18,997 bases of DNA, taken from a virus. Positions 1,669 to 18,077 of this stretch are shown piece after piece. Positions within the stretch are counted from its first letter, which is position 1. Each line of letters opens with the position of its first letter. The translations under genes were made by a program, and so were the position numbers. The notes beneath the pieces were generated by a model that was not told the origin of the DNA, did not search any database, and worked only from the letters and a program-made list of their open reading frames with translations. The stretch lies in the UHGV virus genome UHGV-0102822. The stretch is one strand, 5' to 3'.

Positions 1669-3606
1669 ATGCTCAAGTTAAAACGAGAATATACAGTCCA
1701 AGACGTTACTGAAACCGATGGCGTTTTTGAAATCGCATTCAGCTCTGAAACTCCTGTTGAGCGTCAGATTGAAGATGAATACGGACATCCAGTTACGGTT
1801 AATGAAATTCTTGTTCATGACGGTCCTCATAATGCAGACCTTACAAGAATTAATAACGGTGCTGCTTTGCTGTTTAATCACGATTTCGATAAACATCTCG
1901 GAAAAGTAATTCCTGGTTCTGTTCGAATTGATTCAGACCGTATCGGTCGCGCAAATGTCCAATTCAGTAAACATGGCTCTTTAGCCCAAGAAGTTTATGA
2001 AAAAGTCAAAGAAGGAACAATCAGCAAGATTTCTTTCGGATATGACTTGAATGAATATGAACTCAAGGGTCAAGACTTATTAGTTACGCTTTGGTCTCCA
2101 TATGAAATAAGTTTTGTAACTGTTCCTGCTGACGATTCCGTGGGGTTGGGAAGATTACTAAATACAAATAACAAAAGCGTTAAGAAATTACGCGAATTAA
2201 ATTTAACTAACAAAGGTACTCGAATGAAACGCATTGATGAAATGACGAAAGACGAACTGGTAGAAATGACCATTGACGAAATCGAAATGCTGTCCGAAGA
2301 AGATCGCGCGAAACGTGAAGAAATTCTGGAAGAAGTAAAAGTCGAAACTGAAAATTCTGGTGATTCTGCTGTTGTCGAAACTGACAATTCTCCTGCTGTT
2401 GTTCCTGCTGGTGATGAATTAACAGAAGAAGAACGCGAAGAAGAAACGGAAGAAATTCTTGAAATCGCACAGCGCTACAAAGTAGCACAAAAAGACGTTG
2501 CAAGCGCAATCGCTAAAGGCATGACCGCACGTCAATTTAAACGTTCTATTAAACCTAACAAAGCTCCGGCGGTAATTCGTAACATGACTAAAGATACTAA
2601 AGTAAATCTGGAAGATAAATTCGACCTTGGCGATGCTGTTCGCTCTATGATGAATGGTAAAGCTGTTCGTGGCGCTGCTGCTGAATATACACAAGAAATG
2701 ACTCGTAAGCGTCTACAACGTGGTCTTAGCGTTTCAACCGGTATCTATATGCCTGTAAATGCTATTGCTCAGAACTCACGCGCAATTAACACTGTTCCTA
2801 CTGTTTCTCCAATTCAGGAAACTGTTCAGCGTTATGATTCATTCGTTGAAATGCTATTGAAAGGTACTGTTGCTGATAAATTGGGTGTTAACTTCCTGAC
2901 TGGTTTGAAAACTCCGATTTCTGTACCAAAACAAACTAAATCTTCTGTTGAAGCATTCGGTTTCGTTGATGAAAACGGTGAATCTCCAGAAGGCGAAAGC
3001 GCATTCACCAACATTAAGTTTGAACCAAAAACATTTACTGGTGGTAACCCAATTTCTCGTCAAGCTCTGTTGACTCTGCCAAATCTGGGCGCTTTCATTT
3101 CTGACCACATTGTTAAGCACTCACGCGCTAAACTGGAAGGTCTGATGTTTGGTTCTCTGACTGATGCTAAAGCACCTGATTCAATCGTTGCTCAGTTGAC
3201 TGCACAGGCAATGGGAATGACCTACAAAGAGTTCATCGTTGAAGCTGCAAAAGCTAAAGGCAATGGCGTTGATATGGCTGCATTTAAATATCTGATGGCT
3301 GCTGCTCTTGAAGGTGATTTGAAAACCACTCTGCGTGATGCTGGTGTTTCTGGTTATATCATCGACGACATGAACAAAATCGGCGGACATGATGTTATCG
3401 GTTCTGGTCTGGTTAAAGATGGTCAGGTTATCTCTGGTGACTTCTCCGCTGTAACTGTAGCTGAATGGGAAGGTCTTGCTCTTGACCTAGACGACACAAC
3501 TTATCGTAACAAAGGCGCTATCGTTCCTCGCGTTTGGGCTGATATCGATTGGAAAGTTTGTGCTGACGATCGTCTGTTCCTGCACGAAAAAAAGACGGGA
3601 GCTTAA
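1669..3606 (+). CDS. prohead protease (HK97 gp4 / peptidase S78-like) fused to an acidic scaffold-like linker and an HK97-fold major capsid protein domain
   Basis: The N-terminal ~165 aa align by eye with HK97 gp4 protease, including the His (LFNHDFD) and Ser (ISKISFGYD) catalytic contexts and the ISFVTVPADD segment. The middle is an acidic helical stretch (EEEREEETEEILEIAQRY). The C-terminal ~370 aa have an HK97-type capsid character (GDFSAVTVAEWEGLALDLDD, DDRLFLHEKK tail). The gene is followed by a strong terminator, as expected for a highly expressed capsid gene. Confidence 0.75.
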   Translation: MLKLKREYTVQDVTETDGVFEIAFSSETPVERQIEDEYGHPVTVNEILVHDGPHNADLTRINNGAALLFNHDFDKHLGKVIPGSVRIDSDRIGRANVQFSKHGSLAQEVYEKVKEGTISKISFGYDLNEYELKGQDLLVTLWSPYEISFVTVPADDSVGLGRLLNTNNKSVKKLRELNLTNKGTRMKRIDEMTKDELVEMTIDEIEMLSEEDRAKREEILEEVKVETENSGDSAVVETDNSPAVVPAGDELTEEEREEETEEILEIAQRYKVAQKDVASAIAKGMTARQFKRSIKPNKAPAVIRNMTKDTKVNLEDKFDLGDAVRSMMNGKAVRGAAAEYTQEMTRKRLQRGLSVSTGIYMPVNAIAQNSRAINTVPTVSPIQETVQRYDSFVEMLLKGTVADKLGVNFLTGLKTPISVPKQTKSSVEAFGFVDENGESPEGESAFTNIKFEPKTFTGGNPISRQALLTLPNLGAFISDHIVKHSRAKLEGLMFGSLTDAKAPDSIVAQLTAQAMGMTYKEFIVEAAKAKGNGVDMAAFKYLMAAALEGDLKTTLRDAGVSGYIIDDMNKIGGHDVIGSGLVKDGQVISGDFSAVTVAEWEGLALDLDDTTYRNKGAIVPRVWADIDWKVCADDRLFLHEKKTGA

Positions 3607-3671: not shown

Positions 3672-3696
3672 AGGGACTCTTCGGAGTCCCTTTTTT
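3672..3696 (+). terminator. rho-independent terminator after the capsid gene
   Basis: GGGACTC-TTCG-GAGTCCC, a perfect 7-bp GC-rich stem with a UUCG tetraloop, followed by TTTTTT. Confidence 0.75.
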
Positions 3697-3706
3697 CGTT
3701 TTGGAA

Positions 3707-3716
3707 CTAAATAAAG
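3707..3716 (+). promoter_or_regulatory. CTAAATAAAG motif (candidate late promoter) with AAAAAGGAGA Shine-Dalgarno directly downstream
   Basis: Part of a 27-bp cassette, CTAAATAAAGAAAAAGGAGACAACATG, that is 24/27 identical to the one at 14626-14652. Confidence 0.45.
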
Positions 3717-3730
3717 AAAAAGGAGACAAC

Positions 3731-4033
3731 ATGCTTTTTCCATACACACAAAAACAAAAACAAGAATTCTTAAAACGATTTGGTCAAACGCTATTAATCG
3801 ATAATAAAGAAACTCTGGCTATTGTCGAAATTGAAATTACTAACGTTGATGGACAAGTATCAGAAACGTTTTATATAACAATTGATGAAGTAATAGCTCG
3901 CCAAGATCTCGAAGTTCATTACAAAGAAAACATCTACCGAATTGCTTATATCGTTAACGATGGTTCAGGACTTGTTAATGCTTATTTGTCTTTAATTGGT
4001 GATAACAGCGGAAGGACTAGCAAATATGAATAA
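3731..4033 (+). CDS. hypothetical virion protein, connector/head-completion candidate by position
   Basis: 100-aa ORF from ATG 3731, preceded by AAAAAGGAGA with 5-nt spacing. The track's 3701 start is a TTG lying inside the promoter/SD region. No recognisable motif; the role is inferred only from position after the capsid gene. Confidence 0.55.
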   Translation: MLFPYTQKQKQEFLKRFGQTLLIDNKETLAIVEIEITNVDGQVSETFYITIDEVIARQDLEVHYKENIYRIAYIVNDGSGLVNAYLSLIGDNSGRTSKYE

Positions 4034-5512: not shown

Positions 5513-8368
5513 ATGGCTAATAACAAAGTCAAACACTATAGGACTGATGTCGCAGGACGTAAACCTGATGCTTCAAAAATGCTTGAAGGTGAAATTGCTA
5601 TTAACATGACCGATAAAAGCATTTTCACGAAACGTGGAACTGAAATCGTTAATATCGGTAATGGTGCTGATTCTGTCGTCGAAGGTGGACAGACTTTTAT
5701 CGGTGACGTTCAAGCAAATAAATTAAAATCTGACACTGATATTTCTCTGAAAAATTCCGAGAAAAGTTCTATCGTTTTTGAAGATGAACACGGTAAAGCA
5801 AAAGTCGAATTGAAATCTGAAAAGCAAACTGATTCCGAAGGCTCTTTGAAAGTTGTTGTTTCGAACGGTAAAAACGCTTCAACAGGTTATTCAACTTATG
5901 ATTTCGTTAATGGTCGTTTACGTTTACCAGTTGCACCAATTGAAGCTGATAACGCAACGCGTAAAGACTATGTTGATTCAGAGATTAAGAAAGTCTCCGA
6001 CGCAACAGGAACGAATCTGACAGCTTTAGAGAATAAAGTTAACGCTAACGACACGAAACAGACCGAAGCGAACACCGAGCTGGACAATCGTCTTAACGCT
6101 AAGATTGATTTAAACAATACGACTATTAACACGAAAGTTGACGCTAACAAAGCCGACGCAGATTCAAAGATTAAAGCTGTTAATGATCGTTTGACTGTTG
6201 ATAATCAGACTTTGACCGACATGATTAATACCAAGGTTTCAAAAGCTGGTGACACAATGACTGGCGACTTGACTGTTCCTAAATTGAATGCCGACGGTAT
6301 CAAAGCAAATTATATTAACTTGGGTCCTAATCCTAATAGTTTAGGTGCTAACAGTATTATGATGGGAGATTCCGATACAGGATTTAAATGGAGAGAAGAC
6401 GGTTGGTTAGACACTTATTCCAATAATGTTGTTGTATCAAGTGTTGCAGGATCTCAAAACTTTTTTAATCGTCAAGTTACGATTAGATATAGAAGCGATG
6501 GTGCAGGAAACGTTAACGGTCTGGCACCTGCTGGCACATCTTTGCTTAAAATCGATACAACGACCGATGGAAACGGAATCGGAGACGGATACACTTATTT
6601 CGGATTATCAAATGCCGGTAAATATCATAACTATCTGAGAGGAACCGGTGCAACGTTCATCGATTCTCATGACGGTGTGAGAATAAGTGGTCAGACTCAT
6701 ACTCTTGCGGGAGTTGTGACTTCTGGTAAATCAGTAGGAACTTATGATACTTATTCCATGGTCAACTGGACTCAAGACACACAAGCTTTCAACCGTCTGA
6801 GACATTTCAGAGCGTGTGGTGCGTCGACCTGGTGGCATGAACTTGTATGGGCACATCATGATAATCCAAAATATTCGGATTCATTAACTTGGTGGCAGGG
6901 TATCGGGGCTGATAACTGGATTGCATCATTGCACCAAAGCGGTAATTATAAGACAAACCGATTCGAAGCACACGGCAGAAGTGCCGCTTATAAGCTTTTC
7001 AGTGCGACAAGTGAAGCTGCTTATATTTCTGGTAACAACGATGGAAAAGAAAACTCATGGCTGTTAGGTAAAACAGATGCCGGAACAAACATCATGTTTC
7101 AGAATAATATGGTTACGGGTCAAAGTTCCGCCGTAGTTCTGAGACAGAACCATGTGCAGCTTAACGCTAATGGTTATAATACCCTGACAGTTCTTGATAA
7201 CAGAATTGAAATCGACGGTTCAAGATGGGCAGCAACAAACAGTCACGCTTGGTCAGATCAGTGGAATCAATTGCCTCCTGTTCTGCTTAATTTCGGAACA
7301 TCTTCAGGTGCAAGTGATTATTATCCTGGATTTGCATTGCAGCAAACGACTTCCCAGGCGGGATATCATACTCGTTTTGAAATGGGAATAATTCGAGCCG
7401 GTGCACAGTACGGAAAAGGTGTAATACGTGTTTCTGAACCGAACCATGCTGCGATGGCCGGAAAAAATCAGTCCATTTATGAATTTGATATAAACGGAAG
7501 ATTCGCATCACCGAATATTGTTGATACTCCTAAAGTTGAAACCCGACAGATAACAAGTTTCGGTGTTAATACTCTTAACGTGCTAGGCGGAAACTCAATT
7601 GCGTTTGGTGATGGTGACACCGGTATTCGTCAAAGAACTGATGGAAACTTAGAAATTCTGGCAAATAGCGTTCATGTTGCAACATTCGACCACGCGGGAA
7701 TTAATTCATTAACCACTATGCGCGTTTCTTCTCCAAACGATTCTCGTGGCGTATATGTTCATAATATCAGAACAGGCAGCGCAAACGCATTAATTGCTGG
7801 TCAAGTTGATGGCTGGGCTGATTGGGGAGCATGGCGTGAACGTCCTGCTGGAATGATCGTAGAAGCGGGTTCAACTGATAAATGCATTAACATTTGGAAA
7901 TCTGTTCAGTGGGGAACCGAATGGTCTGCTGGAATGGACATTTATAATCCAGCAGGCGGCGCTTATGAAGCCATGCTTCATGTTAGAGGTGCAAACTTTA
8001 CATTTAGAAGCGTTGATGGTGCTGCCCATGCTGTTTCTTGGGTTTCAACTTCCGATAAACGTCTGAAATCAAATCTTGAAAAAATCGAAAACGCAGTTGA
8101 TAAGGTTAATACGTTAACTGGTTACGTTTACGATAAGAAATCAGATTTGAAAGAAACTGAATATTCGTTCGTAACTCGCGAAGCAGGTATTATTGCTCAA
8201 GAACTGAAAGAAGTATTACCAGAAGCTGTTAGTTCTTTCGGCGAAGATGAAATTCTTGGTGTTAACTCTGCTGCTGTAAACGCGTTGCTTGTTAATGCTA
8301 TCAAGGAATTAAGTGCTGATTTGAAAGAAACAAAAGCGCGTCTTGATGCTTTAGAACTTGCTAAATAA
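5513..8368 (+). CDS. tail fiber protein with C-terminal intramolecular chaperone / autoproteolysis domain (peptidase S74-like)
   Basis: 951 aa. The shaft region has P2 gpH / T-even-fiber-like motifs (KAGDTMTGDL; MMGDSDTGFKWREDGW and AFGDGDTGIRQRTDGN repeats). The C-terminal ~105 aa (SDKRLKSNLEKIENAVDKVNTLTGYVYDKK...GIIAQELKEVLPEAV...ALLVNAIKEL...LKETKARLDALE) match the signature of the self-cleaving chaperone domain known from endosialidase and T5 pb1-type fibers. Confidence 0.8.
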   Translation: MANNKVKHYRTDVAGRKPDASKMLEGEIAINMTDKSIFTKRGTEIVNIGNGADSVVEGGQTFIGDVQANKLKSDTDISLKNSEKSSIVFEDEHGKAKVELKSEKQTDSEGSLKVVVSNGKNASTGYSTYDFVNGRLRLPVAPIEADNATRKDYVDSEIKKVSDATGTNLTALENKVNANDTKQTEANTELDNRLNAKIDLNNTTINTKVDANKADADSKIKAVNDRLTVDNQTLTDMINTKVSKAGDTMTGDLTVPKLNADGIKANYINLGPNPNSLGANSIMMGDSDTGFKWREDGWLDTYSNNVVVSSVAGSQNFFNRQVTIRYRSDGAGNVNGLAPAGTSLLKIDTTTDGNGIGDGYTYFGLSNAGKYHNYLRGTGATFIDSHDGVRISGQTHTLAGVVTSGKSVGTYDTYSMVNWTQDTQAFNRLRHFRACGASTWWHELVWAHHDNPKYSDSLTWWQGIGADNWIASLHQSGNYKTNRFEAHGRSAAYKLFSATSEAAYISGNNDGKENSWLLGKTDAGTNIMFQNNMVTGQSSAVVLRQNHVQLNANGYNTLTVLDNRIEIDGSRWAATNSHAWSDQWNQLPPVLLNFGTSSGASDYYPGFALQQTTSQAGYHTRFEMGIIRAGAQYGKGVIRVSEPNHAAMAGKNQSIYEFDINGRFASPNIVDTPKVETRQITSFGVNTLNVLGGNSIAFGDGDTGIRQRTDGNLEILANSVHVATFDHAGINSLTTMRVSSPNDSRGVYVHNIRTGSANALIAGQVDGWADWGAWRERPAGMIVEAGSTDKCINIWKSVQWGTEWSAGMDIYNPAGGAYEAMLHVRGANFTFRSVDGAAHAVSWVSTSDKRLKSNLEKIENAVDKVNTLTGYVYDKKSDLKETEYSFVTREAGIIAQELKEVLPEAVSSFGEDEILGVNSAAVNALLVNAIKELSADLKETKARLDALELAK

Positions 8369-9001: not shown

Positions 9002-9418
9002 ATGTTTAAATTTCAAGCTGACTTATCAAAATTATTAAATCGTTATATCAACAAAGAACACAAATACGGTCAAAACGACTGTAATATCCTTGTCGCTGAA
9101 TATATCGATATGACTTGCGGAACAGATTACGCAAGCAAACTTATTTCCAAATATGACTCTGTTCAATCGGGTTTAAAACACTGCAAAGAACTTACAGGTT
9201 TTAATAACGTTTTAGAAGCTTGTGAAAAGCATTTCGAAAAATCAAACATTATCGAAACAGGGTCAATTGTCTTAATTAAAAAAACATACAGACGCCGAGT
9301 TTATTACGTTGCGTCGATTGTCTTTAACGACAAAGCAATTATTGAACACAACAACAAATACGCTTTGATAAACGTAAAAGATTTTGAATACGAATTAATT
9401 TTTAACAGGAGAAAATAA
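9002..9418 (+). CDS. NlpC/P60-type tail assembly protein (lambda gpK C-terminal domain-like)
   Basis: 138 aa from ATG 9002; the track's GTG 8990 overlaps the SD. Cys-His-His spacing typical of NlpC/P60 (QNDCNILVAEY ... IIEHNNKYALI). Sits directly upstream of the gpJ-like gene, as gpK does in lambda. Confidence 0.55.
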   Translation: MFKFQADLSKLLNRYINKEHKYGQNDCNILVAEYIDMTCGTDYASKLISKYDSVQSGLKHCKELTGFNNVLEACEKHFEKSNIIETGSIVLIKKTYRRRVYYVASIVFNDKAIIEHNNKYALINVKDFEYELIFNRRK

Positions 9419-12400
9419 TGGCTATTGTCGCAATTGGTGCAATCATCGCTGGTGCTTCTGCTGGTCTTGCTGCTTATGCCGCTGGGATGGCATTAGCTAT
9501 TTCAATCGGTATTGGTGTTGCTGTTGCTGCTGTTTCCGCTTTAATGTCAACAGCTATGCAACCAACTGTTCCTCGATTTAATACAAGTGATACCGCAACA
9601 ACATTAGGAACAACGTCTGATCCTTCAACTGTATTACCGATTATCTACGGTGAACAACGCACAGGAACAATTAACGTTTGGGATGCTGTAGGAAATGATA
9701 CGACTTATTTGGTGCAAATTTTTGCAATTGCCGAAGGTGAAGTTGATAGCTTTAAAAACCTTTATATCGATAACAAGCGTATTCTGAATGATGCCGTTTA
9801 TCGTGATGGAATTGTTTCAAGAGGTTCAATCGTTTCTCAATATCAAGACTATGTGCAAGTTGAATTCTCTGTTGGTAAAGAACAAGGTCATCATTTCAAA
9901 CTTGCTGAACAATACTTAGGAAATGACCCAAGTGGCTGGCCTGTTTCTGCTACAGGTAACGGTGTCGCTTCTTGCTGTATCGTAATGCAGAAACGAAATT
10001 CAGACTTACAAAACCAAGCTGATATCCTACAACCTAACAGTCAGGTCGCTGTTGATGTTAGAGGACGTTTGATTACTGACTTAAACACGGGACAAATCGT
10101 TCCATCTCGCAACGGTGCAAGTCAGATTGTCGATTATCTGACGAACGAACGATACGGATTAGGAGTTTCACTTGATAAAATTAACCTTGATAGTTTTAAA
10201 GCTGCTGCAAATTATGCTTTAAGCAATCAACTATTTTCCGATGGTGCAACAGACCCTAACGCAACGTTTAAAGAAAACTTAACTCAGCTTGCAGGTGCTT
10301 TTAACGGAATGATTTTCGAATCATTCGGACAAGTTTATTGCAAAATCGATGGTCCTGATGTTGTTTCATTTGATTTCGATGAAGAAAATATTTCTGCTGG
10401 TTCAGTTTCGTTGAATTCAGGTGGTTCAGAGGAATATTACAATACGCTGAACGTGAAATATCAAGATCCTGCAATCGATTATTCCGAGCAAGTTCTTCGT
10501 TATCCATCTGACGTGACGACCGACAAAACAATTCAATATGATAAACGTATTATCGCGAAAGATGTTAATTATCGTTTTGTGAAATCTAAAGACCAATTGG
10601 ACAAACTTGCTTCAATCGAACGTAACAAATCACTGTTAAAACAGATTATCAGCTTTAGTTCTCCTGATTCCTATACTATTCAAGTTTGGGATGTTATCAG
10701 AGTTAACTTTGATGAATTAAATTTGCAAGATTCGTTATGGCGCGTTACTAACGTTAGTCGTTCAATGAATAAGGGCGTTGCTGGTATCGTTAACATCACA
10801 GCTACTGAATATATTGAAGAAGTTTATACCGATTTAGACTATGCGAAAGATCCTAATAACAACGGTTCAAACGTACCAAACAAAGGATACTTGATTGCTC
10901 CTACGAATCTTAAAGTTTCAAGCGTTTCAGAAACAGCTTTAGGAAGAACTTTTAAAGTTTCATGGAATTCAGAGCAAGATTTTAACCGTTCAGGTTTTTA
11001 TATTCAATATGCAGTTGCAGGAACAAACCAATGGACTCAAGCAGGATTCACATCAGGAAATTCTTACTTGATTATGAACATGGACCCATTGCAGAAATAT
11101 GATATTCGTGTTTGTGCTTCTGGTGTTTTCTATACGTCTGAATGGGTTTATTCAATGAATGTTAACCCTGATGTCGTTTATAATCTGCCTAAAGTTCGTG
11201 GTCTAAGACTTGTTAACTCTGAGTTTAATAACAACGTTACGCAACAAACGCAATTTGAATTTGCATGGGATAATCAGAGTTCAGAGAAATTCGAAGTTGA
11301 CGGCGTTCAACAGACTTTCGAACAAGTATTTCAGTATTACGAAATCAAAATCACTGGACAAAGACCTGTTGTATACAGAACTAAAGATTTGAGCTTCATT
11401 TATGATTTACGAATGAACCAGCAAAACGGTATCAGTCGTGAAATTAAATTTGAAATCACTGCTGTTGGTTATTCAGGTTTAAGATCTGAACCTACTGAAT
11501 TAATCGTAAGAAATAATCAAGCTCCTGCAATAATCGGTTTTACTGCTTCGAATGGTCCTGGATTATTGATGTGTTCTTGGAACGATCCAATGAGTGTTGC
11601 ACCTGATTATTCTGGAACTGTTATTCAAGTTTCAAATAATCCTGAATTCACTGACATTAATCAAGTTCAGTTGAGTTCTAGCCAGTTCATTGAAAACTTC
11701 CCGTTAGTTGACGGTGAATATTATGTTCGAGCTGCATGGTATGACGTTTTCGGACAAGACCAATTAGTTTGGACTGAATCAGTTTATATCAACATGAAAT
11801 GGGATATTCCATGGACAGAAGATATGAAAGACCAGTTAAACGACTTGCTTGATTTAGACCAACGAGTTGATGGTGCTATCGAGGACGCTTTAGAACTCGC
11901 AAATGCTTATACCGATACTCAGATAACATCAACTAAGCAGGAAGTAACAACCGAGATTGATCAGAAGATCAGCACGTCTAATACAACGTTGCATACTCAG
12001 ATAACGAATGAAACGCAAGGCGCTATCAATCAGGCTATTACGATTCAAACGGCTGATTTTGACGGTAAGTTAAACTCTGCTATAACCGAAGTTGAGAAAA
12101 CCCAAGCGGATGATCGTGCTGCAACAGCTTCACAAATCAGCCAATTAAAAGCTGAAACTACGGATATGGTCGCGACTGTTTCTACCGAAGCAAAAGCAAG
12201 CGTTGACGATTTAGCAGGAACTGTTAACAGTAAATGGGCTGTTTCTACAAACGCCGATGGTGTCGTAGCTGGTATTAGTATGTTGGCATCTAAGGACGCT
12301 GCGGGAAATAAAGCCTCAAGCATTATTTTTAACGCTGATAAGATTGCTATAACAAATAATAACACTGCTCCTAATGCTGTTCCACCGTTCATGGTCGCAG

Positions 12401-13098
12401 ATGATAGAGTTTATTTACAAAGCGCGATGATTCGCAATGCTTCGATCGGTAATGCTCAAATTGCTAATGCTGCAATTGATAATGCCAAAATTGCTAATGC
12501 TGCAATTAATAACGCGCAGATTCAAGACGGTGCTATTACAACAGCGAAAATTGGTAATGCTCAAATCGGTTCAGCACAAATTGCCTGGGAAATATCCTCT
12601 GATAACTGGGTTCCTTCCGGTGGTACTCAAGGATGGACAATTAGAAAAGATGGTTGGGCTTCATTCCAAAACGTTACAGTTAAAGGAAATATTCAAGCTG
12701 ATTCTGGTTATTTCTCAGGAGAAATCAGAGGTGGTTCTGGTTATTTCACAGGGACTGTTTACGCTGACAGAATCGAAGGTGACGTTATCAAAATGGGATT
12801 TGTCGATCCGTGGGGATCTGTTCATATTCCTGCTGTTGGTTGGAGAAGAATGATTGCTATTCCTAACGTTGCAATCGCCGGAAGAACTTATTCTGGTGGT
12901 ACTGGTTGGGGTGGTGGCAAAGCGTGGTTAAGACTCTCAAACGGCCAAGAAGTTGTTTACGTTCAATCTCAATCTCTAAACGGTTCAAACGGTGGTGTCG
13001 CATACATCGAAGCGGGACAAGCTGTTGATTTAACTTATACGGTCGAATTAAACCGAGCAGAAGCCTCAAGGGCAGTTTATTTTATCAGTAAAGTTTGA
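9418..13098 (+). CDS. central tail fiber / tip attachment protein (lambda gpJ-like) with a fused hydrophobic Gly/Ala-rich N-terminus
   Basis: 1226 aa. After a ~45-aa hydrophobic stretch comes a gpJ-type N-terminal domain (VLPIIYGEQRTGTINVWDAVGN...LVQIFAIAEGEVDSF), then fibronectin-III-like repeats (APTNLKVSSVSETALGRTFKVSWN...), a coiled region, a 5-residue-period repeat tract and a C-terminal domain. The start ATG overlaps the gpK-like stop (TAATG). Confidence 0.75.
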   Translation: MAIVAIGAIIAGASAGLAAYAAGMALAISIGIGVAVAAVSALMSTAMQPTVPRFNTSDTATTLGTTSDPSTVLPIIYGEQRTGTINVWDAVGNDTTYLVQIFAIAEGEVDSFKNLYIDNKRILNDAVYRDGIVSRGSIVSQYQDYVQVEFSVGKEQGHHFKLAEQYLGNDPSGWPVSATGNGVASCCIVMQKRNSDLQNQADILQPNSQVAVDVRGRLITDLNTGQIVPSRNGASQIVDYLTNERYGLGVSLDKINLDSFKAAANYALSNQLFSDGATDPNATFKENLTQLAGAFNGMIFESFGQVYCKIDGPDVVSFDFDEENISAGSVSLNSGGSEEYYNTLNVKYQDPAIDYSEQVLRYPSDVTTDKTIQYDKRIIAKDVNYRFVKSKDQLDKLASIERNKSLLKQIISFSSPDSYTIQVWDVIRVNFDELNLQDSLWRVTNVSRSMNKGVAGIVNITATEYIEEVYTDLDYAKDPNNNGSNVPNKGYLIAPTNLKVSSVSETALGRTFKVSWNSEQDFNRSGFYIQYAVAGTNQWTQAGFTSGNSYLIMNMDPLQKYDIRVCASGVFYTSEWVYSMNVNPDVVYNLPKVRGLRLVNSEFNNNVTQQTQFEFAWDNQSSEKFEVDGVQQTFEQVFQYYEIKITGQRPVVYRTKDLSFIYDLRMNQQNGISREIKFEITAVGYSGLRSEPTELIVRNNQAPAIIGFTASNGPGLLMCSWNDPMSVAPDYSGTVIQVSNNPEFTDINQVQLSSSQFIENFPLVDGEYYVRAAWYDVFGQDQLVWTESVYINMKWDIPWTEDMKDQLNDLLDLDQRVDGAIEDALELANAYTDTQITSTKQEVTTEIDQKISTSNTTLHTQITNETQGAINQAITIQTADFDGKLNSAITEVEKTQADDRAATASQISQLKAETTDMVATVSTEAKASVDDLAGTVNSKWAVSTNADGVVAGISMLASKDAAGNKASSIIFNADKIAITNNNTAPNAVPPFMVADDRVYLQSAMIRNASIGNAQIANAAIDNAKIANAAINNAQIQDGAITTAKIGNAQIGSAQIAWEISSDNWVPSGGTQGWTIRKDGWASFQNVTVKGNIQADSGYFSGEIRGGSGYFTGTVYADRIEGDVIKMGFVDPWGSVHIPAVGWRRMIAIPNVAIAGRTYSGGTGWGGGKAWLRLSNGQEVVYVQSQSLNGSNGGVAYIEAGQAVDLTYTVELNRAEASRAVYFISKV
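12430..12585 (+). repeat. tandem 15-bp / 5-residue periodic repeat tract inside the gpJ-like gene
   Basis: About nine consecutive pentapeptide units: IGNAQ IANAA IDNAK IANAA INNAQ IQDGA ITTAK IGNAQ IGSAQ. The underlying DNA repeats AATGCTCAAATTGCT / AATGCTGCAATTGAT. Confidence 0.7.
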
Positions 13099-13122
13099 TT
13101 TCTTTCCCCCAAATCCGTTTTT

Positions 13123-13132
13123 CTAAATAAGA
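13123..13132 (+). promoter_or_regulatory. CTAAATAAGA motif (candidate late promoter) upstream of the small-gene cluster
   Basis: Lies 28 nt upstream of ATG 13160; AAAGGAGAAAG SD in between. Confidence 0.35.
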
Positions 13133-13159
13133 CATGGAGGTCTTAAAAGGAGAAAGAAA

Positions 13160-13456
13160 ATGGGTGTTGAAGCCATCATTTCTTTCGCGGGACTGCTATG
13201 CGCTGGCTTTGGATGGATTTGGTCTCAAAAGAACGCAATGGAAGCCGACGCTTTAAAAATCGAACAGAGACTATCTGAAATCGAGAAAAGCGTTGCTCTT
13301 AATAGTGCGACCGATTCAAACGCAAATACTGAATTAACCAACGTTCGTGATTCGTTTAAGGAGTTTAAAGGTGATATGAAAAGTATAGACAATCGAATTA
13401 GAGAAATCGAAATTCGATTAGCGGTGATAGACAGTGAAACGAAAAGAAATAAATAA
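13160..13456 (+). CDS. small membrane-anchored coiled-coil protein (N-terminal TM helix plus helical domain)
   Basis: 98 aa. N-terminal hydrophobic segment AIISFAGLLCAGFGWIW, followed by heptad-like charged helical sequence (ALKIEQRLSEIEKS ... IDNRIREIEIRLAVID). The architecture resembles an i-spanin or other signal-anchored periplasmic protein, but function is unassigned. Confidence 0.5.
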   Translation: MGVEAIISFAGLLCAGFGWIWSQKNAMEADALKIEQRLSEIEKSVALNSATDSNANTELTNVRDSFKEFKGDMKSIDNRIREIEIRLAVIDSETKRNK

Positions 13457-13889
13457 TTACAAGAAAACCCTTTTTGATAAACAAAATAAAAGATGTGCTT
13501 TAACTGGGATAGAAATTACCGATGTTAATAAAGCCCATTTAGACCATGACCACGCTCTTGATGGTTCTCAAGCTGGACGATGCCGAGGATTATTACTCGC
13601 ACAGGCAAACGTCCTTGAGGGCAGATTAAAACATCAATTCATGTATTCAGGTTTAGCGAAGCACATCGAATATATTGATTTTTTAAAAAGATTGGTAACT
13701 TATCTCGAAAAAGATAATTCTAAAAATCCTATTCATCCTCAACTTGTAACAGACCTATCAAAGCGCTTTTCGAAAATGACGTTAAAGCAAATGAAAGAGA
13801 CTTTATTAGCAGAGGACATAAATCCAGTTGGTGATAAAAAATCTCTCATTAACTTGTACAAACAAAATTTAAAGGTGAAGTATGATTGA
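13434..13889 (+). CDS. recombination endonuclease VII homolog (T4 gp49-like, His-Me/HNH-type junction resolvase)
   Basis: 151 aa from GTG 13434, overlapping the upstream ORF by 23 nt. Clear similarity to T4 endonuclease VII as I recall it: HLDHDH, AG-x-x-RGLL, N...LEG..KH.F, SGL, and LVTYLEKDNSKNPIHPQLV versus T4 LLTYLKSDYTQNNIHPNFV. Confidence 0.8.
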   Translation: MKRKEINNYKKTLFDKQNKRCALTGIEITDVNKAHLDHDHALDGSQAGRCRGLLLAQANVLEGRLKHQFMYSGLAKHIEYIDFLKRLVTYLEKDNSKNPIHPQLVTDLSKRFSKMTLKQMKETLLAEDINPVGDKKSLINLYKQNLKVKYD

Positions 13890-14094
13890 AAAAATGAAAG
13901 CTGCATTCAAGAAACTTCCAGCAATGACAGGGGACTTTAAAAAGAAATTCATTTACGCGATGATTGCAATGGCTGTTTATAATTACATCGTTGTTCCGTG
14001 TGCATTGAGTTTCTTCGGAATAGTTCTTCCTATCGTTCCTCTTGATGAAGCTATGAAATATATCTTTGCAATTGTTTCATTTGGGAGTATGTAA
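13882..14094 (+). CDS. small hydrophobic membrane protein (holin-like size, possible dual start)
   Basis: 70 aa. N-terminus MIEKMK has two in-frame ATGs (13882 and 13894) separated by a Lys-containing tripeptide. A ~30-residue hydrophobic core (FIYAMIAMAVYNYIVVPCALSFFGIVLPIV) and a short hydrophobic C-terminus. Start overlaps the endo VII stop; AAAGGTGA SD. Confidence 0.45.
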   Translation: MIEKMKAAFKKLPAMTGDFKKKFIYAMIAMAVYNYIVVPCALSFFGIVLPIVPLDEAMKYIFAIVSFGSM

Positions 14095-14633
14095 TGGCGA
14101 AACTTGGTGGAGTTAAAAAAGACTTAGACAAATGGCGAATAAAAGAATCTGATCAGTTCTCTAAAAGAGTAACTAAAGCGTCTAAACTCGCTTCTGTTGA
14201 GTTACAACGAAAGATTAATCGACGTGTTGAAGGACCTGTGAATTTCACCAAGAACGCCGTTGGGTTCAGATTTAAGATTGATAAAGAAGGAACAACTAAC
14301 AGAATCTTTATCAAAGACGTTCAGGCGAATTATCTTTCACACTTGATAGATGATAACAGTCCGATTAACAAATATGTTCCAACAGGGGTAAGAGGTTCGA
14401 CTAACCAGTTCGGTAACATTCCAGGATTAAAAACTCGTAGAAACCTAGAGGCAGTCAAACAAAAGAAAGATGGTATTAACAGAACGATTCTGATTAAGAC
14501 AAATGTTAAAAAACAGAACAAAAGAGTTATTGCTATTTTCAAACGTCATCAAACTCGTAAGAAATCTATTGGTTCTTGGACTGATATTGGTAATGACATC
14601 ATAAAAACGGTTCGTCGTGTTGCTACTAAATAA
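14094..14633 (+). CDS. hypothetical highly basic protein
   Basis: 179 aa, Lys/Arg-rich throughout. ATG overlaps the upstream stop (TAATG); GGGAG SD. No recognisable catalytic motif. Confidence 0.5.
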   Translation: MAKLGGVKKDLDKWRIKESDQFSKRVTKASKLASVELQRKINRRVEGPVNFTKNAVGFRFKIDKEGTTNRIFIKDVQANYLSHLIDDNSPINKYVPTGVRGSTNQFGNIPGLKTRRNLEAVKQKKDGINRTILIKTNVKKQNKRVIAIFKRHQTRKKSIGSWTDIGNDIIKTVRRVATK

Positions 14634-14636
14634 AAG
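14626..14636 (+). promoter_or_regulatory. CTAAATAAAAG motif (candidate late promoter) plus AAAAGGAGA Shine-Dalgarno
   Basis: Part of CTAAATAAAAGAAAAGGAGACAAAATG, 24/27 identical to the cassette at 3707-3733. Overlaps the stop codon of the preceding gene. Confidence 0.45.
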
Positions 14637-14649
14637 AAAAGGAGACAAA

Positions 14650-14970
14650 ATGAACTTAAATGATTTTGAAACATATCGTGTTGACGAACTCGATTCTATT
14701 TTTATCAAAGAGCACAATCCAGAGTCGATGACTATTCCTTATAGCTTTGAACTGGTGAAAGAAACTCGTATAAAAAGGAATCTTCAAAACGACCAAAACG
14801 TTTTTATTGTTAGCACTCAGAAAAAGAAACCTCGTTATCATTTCAAGAATAATGAAATCGTAGAAATCAATGGTCCTTTCTTTGAACAAAATGCTGTTTG
14901 TATTTTTCAGCAAGAATATATTCATAAAGGATTCAGAATGATTGGATATTTCTTCCAATTCATCGAGTAA
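14650..14970 (+). CDS. hypothetical protein
   Basis: 106 aa from ATG 14650; the track's 14617 start is a GTG inside the promoter/SD cassette. Followed by a strong terminator. Confidence 0.5.
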   Translation: MNLNDFETYRVDELDSIFIKEHNPESMTIPYSFELVKETRIKRNLQNDQNVFIVSTQKKKPRYHFKNNEIVEINGPFFEQNAVCIFQQEYIHKGFRMIGYFFQFIE

Positions 14971-14973
14971 TCA

Positions 14974-15005
14974 AAAGGAGTTATCTTCGTGATAGCTCCT
15001 TTTTC
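14974..15005 (+). terminator. rho-independent terminator
   Basis: AAAGGAGTTATC-TTCGT-GATAGCTCCTTT, a 12-bp stem with one G-U pair, followed by a T-run. Confidence 0.65.
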
Positions 15006-15007
15006 GG

Positions 15008-15018
15008 CATAAATAAAG
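15008..15018 (+). promoter_or_regulatory. CATAAATAAAG motif (candidate late promoter) upstream of the chaperone / tape measure operon
   Basis: Variant of the recurring motif, immediately after the terminator and 31 nt before ATG 15050. Confidence 0.35.
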
Positions 15019-15049
15019 TAAACATTTAAATTAACTATAGGATTAAGAA

Positions 15050-15346
15050 ATGAAATTCGAAGAAATGATCGCCGCTCTCGGAGCAAAACGAGAAGTTGTA
15101 GAAATCAAAGGTTTTAAATTTTATGTTCGCGCAATGACCGTTGAAGAATTTGGTAAATTCTTTTTTATGGAAGACCAGACCGATAATATGATTCTGAAAT
15201 GCATTGAGAACGAAGACGGATCCCCTGTTTTTGAAAATATCGAACAAGTCAAACAACTTTATACCACCGTTCGCGCTCAACTTTCTGCTGCTGTTTCTGC
15301 TGCTTCTGTTATGAAAGAAGAAACTCACGCTGTGGAAAAGAATTAA
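15050..15346 (+). CDS. tail assembly chaperone (lambda gpG-like) by position and frame relationship
   Basis: 98-aa acidic ORF directly upstream of the tape measure gene. The downstream ORF is open in the -1 frame across its 3' end (from 15235). Confidence 0.5.
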   Translation: MKFEEMIAALGAKREVVEIKGFKFYVRAMTVEEFGKFFFMEDQTDNMILKCIENEDGSPVFENIEQVKQLYTTVRAQLSAAVSAASVMKEETHAVEKN

Positions 15347-15381
15347 GGCAGAATCCTTATAAAATATTCAAATTCAGAACC

Positions 15382-15729
15382 ATGTTGCGTAGAGGTTTTA
15401 CCGAACGTGAAATTCTGGATATGAGTATTAAGGATTTCTATGAACTGTGGATATATGAAACTTTCATTGAACCTCAAGGTCCTGCTGTAAATGACTTACA
15501 TCAAGCGCATATAGCATTTTCTGTTTTTGCTAATAATCCAAATATTACAAAAGAAGGTTCGAAGAAATTAAAACTGAAAGATTTCATGTTCATCAAGGAT
15601 AAAGTTTTTAAATCTCCTGAAGAACTGGAAGAAGAACAGAAAAAAGCCGCAGAAGCCAACAGAAAGAAAATGGAATCTATGTTCGACCCGAAACTTCTTG
15701 CGAAAGCAAAAGCTAAAAATAGGAAATAA
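15382..15729 (+). CDS. tail assembly chaperone extension (gpT-like part), probably expressed as a G-T fusion by -1 frameshifting
   Basis: The reading frame is open from 15235, in the -1 frame relative to 15050-15346. There is no Shine-Dalgarno before ATG 15382. The product has a basic C-terminus and the gene ends 2 nt before the tape measure start. Coordinates are as given in the ORF track; the true product probably starts at 15050 and shifts frame near 15334-15340. Confidence 0.4.
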   Translation: MLRRGFTEREILDMSIKDFYELWIYETFIEPQGPAVNDLHQAHIAFSVFANNPNITKEGSKKLKLKDFMFIKDKVFKSPEELEEEQKKAAEANRKKMESMFDPKLLAKAKAKNRK

Positions 15730-15731
15730 TA

Positions 15732-18077
15732 ATGGCGAATTCTCGTTATGATGTTGAGATTCGCGGAGATAATAAAGGACTGTCTACTGCTGTAAAAGAC
15801 TCTATGGACGAACTGAATAAACTTGATTCAGCCGCTCAGGGTCTTTTTAGTAATTTCACAGGTCCACTAAATGGTCTCAGCGATGGTCTCAGCACGATTC
15901 AAAGTATGTCCCCTGCGTTACGCGCATTGGGTGCAGCGGGGTTAGTTGCAGGTGCTGGTTTTGCTGCAATTAATAAAGCTGCTGAAACTGTTAACGTATT
16001 AAATCAGGTTAACACAACAACTGGCGTTTCTATTGAAATGCTTCAACAGTTGCAATCAACGTTCAAAGCTACCGGAATGGACGTTGAGAAATTCGGTGAT
16101 TTAAACAAAGACGCAATGGATAAACTCGGTGATTCTTTGAGAGCTGGCGGTGGTGGTATTGCCGACGACTTAGAAGAATGGGGTTTAAAACTTGAAGATT
16201 ATGCAAAATATGCTGGTGATGCCGAAGGTGGTATTAAAGCATTAATCGACACGTTCTATCAATTAAGAGCCGCTGGTAAATCATCTGCTGAAATTACTAA
16301 CGCAATGGAATCAATGGCGTCTGATGGTTCTCATTTGATTTCAACATTACAGAATTTTTCTAATACCCAAGACGCATTAAACGCAATTCAAGGTCAAACA
16401 GTTTCAATTACTCAAGACGTTGCCGACGAATTCAAAGAATATGAAAGAAACATGAATTCTTTGAAGAAAGCAACTAATGAATTCACGGTCGAAGCTGCTA
16501 GTCCATTAGTTCGTGAATTTAACAATCTTTATGAGTGGATGGATGGTATTGATTGGAGTGAAACGTCTTTTGCGAAATGGCTAAGAGAGAATAACAAAAA
16601 GGGTATAACTCCTTCTGGTATGTCCTCTGGTCAAGTGCAGAATATCGGAAAGTCTGTTGAAGCAATCGAAATTGAAAAGCGTCAGGCGTTTATTGCAGAA
16701 AATGCCAAGTTGCTTAAAAAACAAGTTAATCAGCTAGTTCGTTTAGCTGAACAAGAAACGATGGCAAATAAGGCTCGCCAGAAAGTCTTAGAAGAAAAAG
16801 CGAAGAAAGAAAAAGACGCTGCTGATAAAGCTGAACGTGAAAGAAAATCTGCTGCTGATAAAGCCGAAAGGGAACGTAAAGCTGCAATGGCTAAAGCCAA
16901 AGCTGATTATGACAAAATGATGGCTGATCGTGCTCAGGCAGTTGAATCTCTGAAACAGTTAGACGTTGCGGTTATTGCTCAAGAAGGACGTTCATATGCT
17001 TCTCAGATTAATCAGACTCAGCAAGCACTAACAAAGCTTCAAGAACTAAGAGACAAAGGGATAATCTCACAGGAGCAATTCCTAGAACGTCGTAATTCTC
17101 TATTGATTAACTCGTCAAAAGAATTCTCCGACAGTCTTAAGGCTAATCCTGCTGACATTGGCATTATCACTCAGTCGATGAATCAAATGTTCGATATTCA
17201 AAAGCAAGAACTGGATATTAAACGTCAACAGAACTTGATTTCAGAACAGCAATACAACGAACAGTTAGAGAATCTCCAAATTGCACATCAAGAGAAGATG
17301 AAAGCAATTAAAGAGATTGATGCTAATCAGGTGAATATGCAGAACTTGAATTCAATTGGTTTCGCAACTGATGAAGAAAGAATGGCATTAGAGCAAGAAG
17401 CATTAAATCAACAGTTCGAAAGGTTCAGAGAACAGAATCAGAAAATGTACGAATCTGGACTTTTGTCGCATGAACAATTTTTAGAGCAAAAAAGACGACT
17501 AGACAAGGCTTATTCTGTTCAGTCTGAAAATATTGCTATGATGGAAATTCAAACGAAAATGGGAATGTATAACGGTTTTGCTCAAGGCATGGCTGGTGTT
17601 ATTTCCGGTATTTCGGGTGAAAACTCTAAAGCCGCTCAAGCTGCGTTTGCAGTAGCTAAAGGAACAGCTATCGCAAATGGTATGTTAAACGCATATCAAT
17701 CTGCAACTAAAGCAATGGCAACTTATCCTGGTCCTTTGGGATACGCATTAGCCGCATCAAGTTATGCGCAAGTTTTAGGACAAGTTATGTCCATGAAATC
17801 TGTGAATATGACTGGTATGGCTCACGATGGCATTTCTGAAATTCCAAGAGAAGGAACATGGCTGCTTGATGGTGGTGAAAGAGTCGTTGATCAGAGAACT
17901 AACGGAGATTTGAAAGACTTCTTGAATAATCAAAGCGAGTCTAAGACTCAGCCTATTGATGCTCGTGTAATCGTACAAGGAAACGTGACTGATCAGCGTT
18001 GGTTTGCTGAACAACTCAAGAAGCAAGAAAAGATTATCACATCAATTGTTCAATCAGGAAACAGACGCAAAATGTAA
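15732..18077 (+). CDS. tail tape measure protein
   Basis: 781 aa. Long predicted helical, charged coiled-coil central region with an internal tandem repeat (AADKAERERK x2), and a Gly/Ala-rich hydrophobic segment near the C-terminus (AQAAFAVAKGTAIANGMLNAYQSATKAMATYPGPLGYALAASSYAQVLG). Preceded by the chaperone pair. Confidence 0.8.
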   Translation: MANSRYDVEIRGDNKGLSTAVKDSMDELNKLDSAAQGLFSNFTGPLNGLSDGLSTIQSMSPALRALGAAGLVAGAGFAAINKAAETVNVLNQVNTTTGVSIEMLQQLQSTFKATGMDVEKFGDLNKDAMDKLGDSLRAGGGGIADDLEEWGLKLEDYAKYAGDAEGGIKALIDTFYQLRAAGKSSAEITNAMESMASDGSHLISTLQNFSNTQDALNAIQGQTVSITQDVADEFKEYERNMNSLKKATNEFTVEAASPLVREFNNLYEWMDGIDWSETSFAKWLRENNKKGITPSGMSSGQVQNIGKSVEAIEIEKRQAFIAENAKLLKKQVNQLVRLAEQETMANKARQKVLEEKAKKEKDAADKAERERKSAADKAERERKAAMAKAKADYDKMMADRAQAVESLKQLDVAVIAQEGRSYASQINQTQQALTKLQELRDKGIISQEQFLERRNSLLINSSKEFSDSLKANPADIGIITQSMNQMFDIQKQELDIKRQQNLISEQQYNEQLENLQIAHQEKMKAIKEIDANQVNMQNLNSIGFATDEERMALEQEALNQQFERFREQNQKMYESGLLSHEQFLEQKRRLDKAYSVQSENIAMMEIQTKMGMYNGFAQGMAGVISGISGENSKAAQAAFAVAKGTAIANGMLNAYQSATKAMATYPGPLGYALAASSYAQVLGQVMSMKSVNMTGMAHDGISEIPREGTWLLDGGERVVDQRTNGDLKDFLNNQSESKTQPIDARVIVQGNVTDQRWFAEQLKKQEKIITSIVQSGNRRKM
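16818..16883 (+). repeat. imperfect 33-bp tandem duplication inside the tape measure gene
   Basis: GCTGCTGATAAAGCTGAACGTGAAAGAAAATCT followed by GCTGCTGATAAAGCCGAAAGGGAACGTAAAGCT, encoding AADKAERERKS / AADKAERERKA. The Arg codons are swapped between synonymous forms. Confidence 0.7.

What the first reader, a model, noticed from the sequence alone, without database searches (positions are those of the whole stretch)
12430..12585. Five-residue periodic repeat tract (x-N-A-x-I) in the gpJ-like protein
About nine tandem pentapeptides with a fixed hydrophobic Ile, and Asn-Ala at conserved positions, encoded by near-identical 15-bp DNA units. The period matches beta-solenoid-forming pentapeptide repeats, but the register differs from the classic A-(D/N)-L-x-x consensus. 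The DNA repeats also make a hotspot for slippage or recombination that could change fiber length or host range. The repetitiveness creates a spurious alternative-frame ORF at 12437-12853.
Basis: seen in the sequence. Interest (0 to 1): 0.4.

Follow-up and report, generated by a model that had tools for sequence, protein, structure and literature searches.

The report
Pentapeptide shaft repeat in tail fibre
The five-residue repeat is real, but it is an ordinary, very widespread building block of phage central tail fibres, most likely a rigid three-chain beta-helix spacer and not a classic pentapeptide-repeat solenoid or a DNA slippage hotspot.

Summary
The gpJ-like central tail-fibre gene (9418-13098) contains 11 in-register pentapeptides ending in Ile (aa 1001-1055, nt 12418-12582), far beyond chance. 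At the DNA level the units are only 56% alike on average. The tract is an expansion of a conserved 4-unit element found at the same position in solved central fibres (F2 pyocin and 23gd gp24; also readable in lambda gpJ). In the related F7 pyocin fibre, a "short intertwined beta-helix" follows the beta-prism at the corresponding place. AlphaFold2 monomer models give the tract pLDDT of about 90 with no intrachain beta-ladder. Fold searches return only chains of intertwined trimeric fibres and spikes, never pentapeptide-repeat proteins, and no Pfam pentapeptide model reaches threshold. The best reading is a narrow trimeric beta-helix shaft segment that sets fibre length; the trimer geometry is inferred, not shown. 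Copy number is fixed at 11 in every close relative examined, down to 45% identity, with many synonymous changes, so the slippage-hotspot idea is not supported in this lineage. Across the wider family, tracts run from 4 to 177 units. The receptor-binding module is exchanged about 65 residues downstream, not in the tract. The ORF at 12437-12853 is spurious. Ordinary member of a known family; low interest.

The parts
9418..13098 (+). gpJ-like central tail fibre (tail tip) protein, 1226 aa
   Evidence: ORF. phrog_31 'central tail fiber J' E 2.5e-68. Pfam Phage_Tail_Tip PF09327 83 bits, Phage-tail_3 and fn3. PDB sequence hits to J-like tail tip proteins and lambda gpJ.
11821..12231 (+). Predicted helical/coiled-coil region upstream (about aa 802-938), carrying F7-pyocin-type SxSxxMxxLxS motifs; context only
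   Evidence: 5 of the protein's 10 pattern matches fall at aa 828-930. The pattern and the fold switch are described in 10.64898/2026.01.28.702463. Not tested further.
12193..12417 (+). Phage_Tail_Tip (PF09327) beta-prism 'seed' and conserved lead-in PPFMVADDRVYL that precedes the repeat
   Evidence: PF09327 matches aa 926-1024. The lead-in aligns with F2 pyocin 25vf_A, T1 gp33 9l9p_S and 23gd_D.
12418..12582 (+). Pentapeptide tract: 11 units x-[N/D/T/S]-A-x-I (aa 1001-1055); proposed trimeric intertwined beta-helix shaft segment
   Evidence: sequence and chance. (position-specific conservation, 11 units in six orthologues). (pLDDT 88-94, no DSSP strand or helix). (fold hits to chains of trimeric fibres and spikes only).
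12436..12512 (+). The only part of the tract that is repetitive at the DNA level (30-bp period = two pentapeptides); 20-bp exact repeats at 12458-12477 and 12488-12507
   Evidence: Tandem Repeats Finder; exact-repeat scan; the repeat finder family D1.
12583..12792 (+). Conserved distal shaft segment homologous to lambda gpJ 939-1001, ending in YADRIEGDVIK; contains an 11-aa tandem duplication (nt 12684-12749)
   Evidence: phmmer alignments to 8iyk_J, 8xcj_Z, 9wca_J and 23gd_D; D7 repeat; coordinates.
12793..13098 (+). Variable C-terminal domain (presumed receptor-binding part), exchanged relative to phage DCP80
   Evidence: Identity to DCP80 falls from about 60% to about 15% from aa 1121 onward. 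The tblastn alignment to DCP80 stops at aa 1124. AlphaFold2 confidence is low here.
12437..12853 (+). Alternative (+1) frame ORF, 138 aa: not a gene
   Evidence: 14% of codon-permuted versions of the gene have a +1-frame open stretch of at least 138 codons. The ORF is interrupted by stops in DCP80 and shortened in L002 and L003.

Best explanation
The tract is the expanded middle of the distal shaft of the trimeric central tail fibre. A short element (lead-in ...PFxVxxGxVY[ILM], then about 4 period-5 units) is conserved in gpJ-type fibres directly after the beta-prism encoded by the Phage_Tail_Tip domain. In this lineage it has been lengthened to 11 units. The three chains most likely wind around one another in a narrow triangular, triple-stranded beta-helix. 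Each pentapeptide forms one side of one layer, Ile (position 5) and Ala (position 3) point into the core, and positions 1, 2 and 4 are exposed. The two alternating unit types (such as ANAAI / TNAKI) would then form alternate layers. By analogy with T4 gp5 (about 4.7-4.8 A rise per repeat; my own knowledge), 11 units would give a rod of about 5 nm, roughly 3.4 nm longer than the 4-unit version. Its job would be mechanical: to set the reach of the receptor-binding tip and to couple it rigidly to the prism and helical region above. In lambda and the F7 pyocin that upper region rearranges on receptor binding to open the tail tip. Shown here: the repeat, its conservation pattern, its homology to the short element of solved fibres, its confident partner-less conformation in AlphaFold2 models, its failure to behave as a pentapeptide-repeat protein, and its length variability across the family. 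Inferred: the trimeric beta-helix geometry, the rise per unit, and the spacer and torque-rod function.
Confidence: 0.65

Rival explanations
1. Each chain folds its tract into its own right-handed four-sided (Rfr) solenoid like bacterial pentapeptide-repeat proteins. Eleven units would give about 2.75 coils and only about 1.3 nm of length, with three such solenoids lying side by side in the fibre.
For: Period 5 with a small residue at i-2 and a hydrophobic residue at i. phmmer aligns A-x-I on A-(D/N)-L: window tract against designed repeat proteins E 5e-4 to 5e-3, and long-tract homologue P0009 against 4yfo 1.5e-12, Np275/276 7.5e-8, All3740 and DotG. Pfam Pentapeptide_4 matches 21/50 tract-rich relatives at E<=1e-3, and some sources name relatives 'YjbI with pentapeptide repeats'.
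Confidence: 0.12
2. The tract forms some other regular trimeric beta structure, or a metastable element that changes conformation during infection, for example an extension of the coiled-coil-to-prism fold switch.
For: The region just upstream carries the F7-type fold-switch pattern. Central fibres of lambda and the F7 pyocin undergo large rearrangements. The geometry of the tract was not determined here.
Against: A hydrophobic period of 5 is incompatible with heptad coiled-coil packing (inference). The F7 paper places the switch upstream and describes the downstream parts as non-switching. A single-chain antiparallel meander would show as DSSP strands in the monomer models, and none are seen.
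Confidence: 0.15
3. The tract is mainly a DNA-level contingency locus: slippage or unequal recombination between 15/30-bp repeats frequently changes unit number, and with it fibre length or host range.
For: A 20-bp exact repeat 30 bp apart could mediate in-frame loss or gain of two units. Unit number varies from 4 to 177 over the whole family.
Against: Eleven units are present in the window, phage DCP80 (45% identity), E. coli PSS-15 and MS 115-1, L002, L003, and every complete tract in six 90%-identity clusters from E. coli, Citrobacter and Enterobacter. There are 15-27 synonymous differences per 55 codons. The longest DNA repeats are 9-20 bp and lie at different places in each lineage. Mean unit identity is 56%. 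The host-range module boundary lies downstream, at about aa 1121.
Confidence: 0.04
4. The ORF at 12437-12853 in the +1 frame is a real overlapping gene.
For: 138 codons with an ATG start. Largely open in two relatives of about 76% identity.
Against: 14% of codon-permuted versions of the gene give an equal or longer open +1-frame stretch. The ORF is broken by stops in DCP80 and truncated in L002 and L003. Its product is a low-complexity Leu/Met/Lys string read from the Asn-Ala-Ile codons.
Confidence: 0.02

Closest known systems
Phage_Tail_Tip / DUF1983 (Pfam PF09327) C-terminal region of gpJ-type central tail fibres (lambda gpJ, T1 gp33, F2/F7 pyocin central fibre, 23gd gp24)
   Same: Same protein type and domain order: hub domains, FN3, helical region, prism, short period-5 element, conserved distal shaft, variable tip. 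PF09327 scores 83 bits. The lead-in and first units align with solved fibres.
   Different: The solved and model fibres have about 4 period-5 units, whereas this one has 11. Lambda's units have lost the Ala/Asn signature.
Pentapeptide-repeat proteins (Pfam PF00805/PF13599; Rfr fold: MfpA, Qnr, Np275/276)
   Same: Five-residue period, small residue at i-2 and hydrophobic residue at i. Weak to moderate HMMER similarity.
   Different: The centre is I/V, not L/F. The polar N/D/T sits at i+2, not at i-1. There is a 10-residue super-period. The window protein is below the Pfam thresholds. The predicted conformation is not a compact four-sided solenoid. The context is a trimeric fibre.
Triple-stranded beta-helices of phage spikes and fibres (T4 gp5 C-terminal VxGxxxxx helix, HylP hyaluronidase, VgrG, Mu/R2 spikes)
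   Same: This is the proposed architecture: three chains sharing one triangular beta-helix built from short repeats, used as a rigid rod. Chains of these proteins are what the fold searches return.
   Different: The repeat is 5 residues, not 8 or irregular, so the prism would be much narrower. There is no sequence homology. The geometry was not verified here.
SU10 (Kuravirus) tail needle gp18, PDB 7z4b_EA
   Same: Best PDB sequence match over the tract itself (E 9.6e-6), with about 7 homologous units (IKNVNITTAQIANARIQWAQIDNVSISNAQIQ) after a coiled-coil.
   Different: It is a podovirus needle and not a gpJ. The deposited model of this part is an AlphaFold2-multimer prediction fitted into a 15 A map.

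Membership tests
Phage_Tail_Tip (PF09327) gpJ-type central tail fibre | Profile match above Pfam's curated threshold | tested here: met
   83.2 bits against a cutoff of 22, aa 926-1024; 41/44 and 30/50 relatives also match.
Phage_Tail_Tip (PF09327) gpJ-type central tail fibre | Located at the C-terminus of a large tail-tip/hub protein with Phage-tail_3 and FN3 domains, within a tail gene cluster | tested here: met
   PF13550 and fn3 hits; phrog_31 central tail fiber J; neighbouring tail fibre, tail and tape-measure genes.
Phage_Tail_Tip (PF09327) gpJ-type central tail fibre | Conserved lead-in PFxV..G.VY[ILM] followed by period-5 units, then the GW..I / IEGD shaft segment, as in solved fibres | tested here: met
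   Alignments to 25vf_A, 9l9p_S, 23gd_D and lambda gpJ.
Phage_Tail_Tip (PF09327) gpJ-type central tail fibre | Homotrimer forming the central fibre of the tail tip | not testable with these tools
Pentapeptide-repeat proteins (PF00805/PF13599, Rfr fold) | Tandem five-residue repeats, at least about 8 copies | tested here: met
   11 uninterrupted units.
Pentapeptide-repeat proteins (PF00805/PF13599, Rfr fold) | Consensus A(D/N)LXX: L/F at the centre, D/N at i-1 | tested here: not met
   Centre I 11/11 in the window and I+V 96% / 85% family-wide; i-1 is K/A/Q; N/D/T sits at i+2.
Pentapeptide-repeat proteins (PF00805/PF13599, Rfr fold) | Profile match above the curated threshold | tested here: not met
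   PF13599 13.2 bits against a cutoff of 38; PF00805 no hit. Relatives: P0009 32.2 bits. 21/50 tract-rich proteins match at E<=1e-3, and P0162 reaches 38.4 bits.
Pentapeptide-repeat proteins (PF00805/PF13599, Rfr fold) | Monomeric right-handed quadrilateral beta-helix | tested here: not met
Triple-stranded (intertwined trimeric) beta-helix fibres | Three chains share one beta-helix, each repeat forming one side of a layer | not testable with these tools
   No multimer prediction and no access to coordinates. Supported indirectly by the F7 description and the SU10 multimer model.
Triple-stranded (intertwined trimeric) beta-helix fibres | An isolated chain is an open spiral resembling single chains of known trimeric beta-helices | tested here: inconclusive
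Triple-stranded (intertwined trimeric) beta-helix fibres | Short repeat with conserved inward hydrophobic and small residues and variable outward positions | tested here: met
   Mean number of different residues per column by repeat position 1-5: 1.91, 2.18, 1.18, 1.55, 1.00.
Simple-sequence contingency locus | Near-identical DNA units and copy-number polymorphism among close relatives | tested here: not met
   56% mean unit identity; 11 units in all close relatives; many synonymous differences.
Diversity-generating retroelement target | A template repeat copy of the variable region nearby | tested here: not met
   No second copy of the tract or C-terminus anywhere in the window.

The most novel reading that the evidence does not exclude
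The x-[N/D/T]-A-x-[I/V] repeat may define a structurally uncharacterised class: the narrowest triple-stranded beta-helix, with five residues per side. It would be convergent in sequence with, but topologically different from, monomeric pentapeptide-repeat solenoids. Phages would use it as a modular molecular ruler, at about 0.5 nm per unit, from about 2 nm (4 units) to more than 80 nm (177 units), in thousands of tail-tip proteins. If so, Pfam's Pentapeptide_4 would currently lump two different folds together.
Probability: 0.5. Interest if true: 0.45.

Novelty: new member of a known kind. Interest (0 to 1): 0.22.

Why it matters
For this window it matters little: the tract is a routine structural spacer in a routine tail-tip protein. 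There are three practical lessons. Such tracts should not be annotated as pentapeptide-repeat (YjbI/Qnr-like) proteins on the strength of weak HMM hits. The host-range module of this fibre starts after the conserved IEGD(V/I)xK motif and not in the repeat, which is relevant for fibre engineering. Unit number is a simple, in-frame adjustable length parameter that could be used to design central fibres of defined reach. More generally, no experimental structure of a long tract of this very abundant repeat turned up in the sources searched here.

Tried and rejected
- Literature searches for '7Z4B', 'J-like tail tip protein', 'F2 pyocin', pentapeptide repeat plus tail fiber, and triple beta-helix plus pentapeptide found nothing specific to this repeat. 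The RBPseg atlas and the Brochothrix phage paper do not mention it.
- Megablast against phage genomes found nothing. The nearest isolated phage, DCP80, is only 45% identical at the protein level.
- NCBIfam has no model for the protein.
- A DGR target (AAY-rich codons) was considered and rejected: there is no template copy in the window.
- An overlapping gene was considered and rejected.
- The tract as a recombination junction was considered and rejected: there is no identity breakpoint at the tract.
- SU10 7z4b_EA and T1 9l9p_S were considered as experimental evidence for the fold and rejected. The first is a fitted prediction and the second is unresolved in that region.
- An argument from Lys ladders (period-2 alternation favouring a three-sided helix) was considered too weak to use.
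- The Logan contig L003 looked like a separate 317-aa gene but is a frameshifted assembly of the same gene.

Full report
**Observation.** The CDS 9418-13098 (+) encodes a 1226-aa protein. Residues 1001-1055 (nt 12418-12582) read QSAMI RNASI GNAQI ANAAI DNAKI ANAAI NNAQI QDGAI TTAKI GNAQI GSAQI. That is 11 uninterrupted pentapeptides, preceded by a lead-in unit DRVYL. Ile is at position 5 in 11/11 units, Ala at position 3 in 10/11 and Asn at position 2 in 7/11. In 5000 shuffles of the protein the longest Ile-only period-5 run never exceeded 5.

The claim of 'near-identical 15-bp units' is not borne out. The eleven 15-mers are 56% identical on average, only one pair is identical, and the longest exact repeat is 20 bp at a 30-bp spacing. 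Tandem Repeats Finder detects DNA periodicity only at 12436-12512, with the stronger period being 30 bp.

**What the protein is.** It is a gpJ-type central tail fibre (tail tip) protein. It matches phrog_31 'central tail fiber J' and Pfam Phage_Tail_Tip PF09327 (83 bits, aa 926-1024), along with Phage-tail_3 and fn3. Its neighbours are portal, head, tail-fibre, tail and tape-measure genes. The window is a prophage found in 7 of 5426 complete E. coli genomes. In strain PSS-15 it lies next to ldtB/mntR/ompX. The nearest isolated phage, DCP80, is only 45% identical in this protein.

**Relation to solved fibres.** PDB sequence searches hit J-like tail tip proteins, and their alignments cover the start of the tract. 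After the same lead-in (PFxV..G.VY[ILM]), the F2-pyocin fibre 25vf_A has MFI KNALI QDGAI DNAKI, 23gd_D has VYI DTARI KNASI NFAQI, and T1 gp33 (9l9p_S) has VIL SSAII KNGFI TNAMI. Lambda gpJ reads GNQI FMNDV FLKRL TAPTI. So the window's tract is an expansion of a conserved element of about 4 units. Downstream, aa 1066-1127 align with lambda gpJ 939-1001.

The F7 pyocin paper describes the central fibre as a fold-switching coiled-coil, then the bottom of a beta-prism, then 'a short intertwined beta-helix', then a narrower prism. The lambda paper describes this part as a prism-like straight fibre that transmits a twist from the receptor-binding domain to the helix bundle above it. Two apparent structural precedents are not experimental for this region. 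SU10 7z4b_EA, the best sequence match to the tract, is an AlphaFold2-multimer model fitted to a 15 A map. The C-terminus of T1 gp33 was not resolved.

**Fold: two candidates.** The first candidate is a monomeric four-sided solenoid, as in pentapeptide-repeat proteins.
- For it: a long-tract homologue (P0009, 31 units) matches designed and natural pentapeptide-repeat proteins at E 1.5e-12 to 7.5e-8, with A-x-I aligned on A-(D/N)-L. The window tract matches designed ones at E of about 1e-3 but natural ones only at E 0.14. In addition, 21 of 50 tract-rich relatives match Pfam Pentapeptide_4 at E<=1e-3, and P0162 scores just above its curated threshold.
- Against it: the window protein scores 13 bits against a cutoff of 38, and PF00805 does not match. 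The centre is I/V and not L/F, and the polar residue is at i+2 and not i-1.
- Also against it: AlphaFold2 models of the window's C-terminal 301 residues and of P0009 give the tract pLDDT 88-94 and about 90 respectively, yet DSSP finds no strand, bridge or helix anywhere in it. A compact solenoid, or a single-chain meander, would have intrachain ladders.

**Conservation and copy number.** Six orthologues all have exactly 11 units: the window, DCP80, E. coli PSS-15, E. coli MS 115-1, L002 and L003. Position 5 is invariant and position 3 nearly so, while positions 1, 2 and 4 vary. Between 15 and 27 of the 55 codons differ synonymously. The longest DNA repeats (9-20 bp) lie at different places in different lineages. 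Every complete tract in six 90%-identity clusters from E. coli, Citrobacter and Enterobacter has the same number of units. The tract is thus old and maintained at the protein level. It is not a slippage hotspot in this lineage.

Over larger distances the number of units is highly variable. It ranges from 4 to 45 among 88 homologues. An exhaustive search finds 6607 representative clusters at E<=1e-3, including giant proteins with up to 419 units and one uninterrupted run of 177 units. The family shows a 10-residue super-period: Lys at position 4 recurs at lag 2 with frequency 0.79 against 0.37 at lag 1. This matches the 30-bp DNA period in the window.

**Recombination and host range.** Identity profiles against relatives show no breakpoint at the tract. 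Against DCP80, identity collapses from about 60% to about 15% at aa ~1121-1126, right after the conserved YADRIEGDVIK. The receptor-binding module is therefore exchanged about 65 residues downstream of the tract.

**Alternative-frame ORF.** The ORF 12437-12853 is open for 140 codons in the +1 frame. Permuting the codons of the gene gives an equally long +1-frame open stretch in 14% of trials. The ORF is broken by stops in DCP80 and shortened in two closer relatives. On the minus strand only ORFs of 49 and 34 aa overlap the tract. No second copy of the tract exists in the window, which excludes a DGR template.

**Mechanism (inferred).** The tract is a rigid three-chain rod. By analogy with T4 gp5 (about 4.7-4.8 A per repeat, from my own knowledge), it would be about 5 nm long. 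It sets the distance between the receptor-binding tip and the prism and helical region whose rearrangement opens the tail tip, and it transmits the binding signal mechanically.

**Verdict.** This is a real repeat and an ordinary member of a very large family that Pfam PF09327 already partly captures. The pentapeptide-repeat-protein reading and the slippage-hotspot reading are not supported. The one point of wider interest is that no experimental structure of a long tract of this abundant repeat turned up. Such tracts may represent a trimeric five-residue-per-side beta-helix that is currently conflated with monomeric pentapeptide-repeat solenoids.

Noticed in passing
window 11899-12207 (aa 828-930 of the gpJ-like protein): Five of the protein's ten matches to the F7-pyocin fold-switch pattern SxSxxMxxLxS (or its reverse) cluster here, just upstream of the prism and tract. 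This fibre may have the coiled-coil-to-beta-prism switch described in 10.64898/2026.01.28.702463.
   Followed up: partly
window 12684-12749: A 33-nt tandem duplication (76% identical) encodes GNIQADSGYFS / GEIRGGSGYFT inside the shaft segment homologous to lambda gpJ (family D7).
   Followed up: no
window 12760-12813 (aa 1115-1132): There is a module boundary after the conserved YADRIEGDVIK. Identity to phage DCP80 drops from about 60% to about 15%, so this is the likely exchange point for the receptor-binding domain.
   Followed up: partly
window 3696-3733 and 14615-14652: A 38-nt near-repeat (84%) of the form ...ACTAAATAAAGAAAAAGGAGACAAnATG spans a stop codon, a Shine-Dalgarno sequence and a start codon at two gene junctions. 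It may be a shared regulatory or translational-coupling element (family D4).
   Followed up: no
window 9418-18077; L004: The gene order is unusual. The gpJ-like gene lies upstream of the tape-measure-like gene (15732-18077), which is the last phage gene before host genes ldtB/ybiR/mntR in E. coli PSS-15. The prophage occurs in only 7 of 5426 complete E. coli genomes.
   Followed up: partly
Yet it carries a lambda-type gpJ central fibre, so the classification or the mosaic origin looks odd.
   Followed up: no
window 1669-3606: The 645-aa 'major head protein' also matches head maturation protease families, and the PSS-15 orthologue is annotated as an HK97 family prohead protease. This suggests a protease-capsid fusion.
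   Followed up: no
L004 8068-10563, compared with window 5513-8368: The region equivalent to the 951-aa long-tail-fibre-like gene is largely unannotated in E. coli PSS-15; only a 135-aa 'tail fiber domain-containing protein' is called. The gene may be a pseudogene or highly divergent there.
   Followed up: no
proteins P0106, P0110, P0113, P0114 (relatives): Several database relatives are fragments whose short contigs end inside the pentapeptide tract, so short-read assemblies tend to break at this region.
   Followed up: no
relatives P0135-P0282: There are giant proteins (up to 4696 aa) made largely of this repeat, with up to 419 units and one uninterrupted run of 177 units in P0170. Two of 50 tract-rich relatives also hit a Pfam 'Decapeptide repeat region' family, PF25296.
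   Followed up: partly
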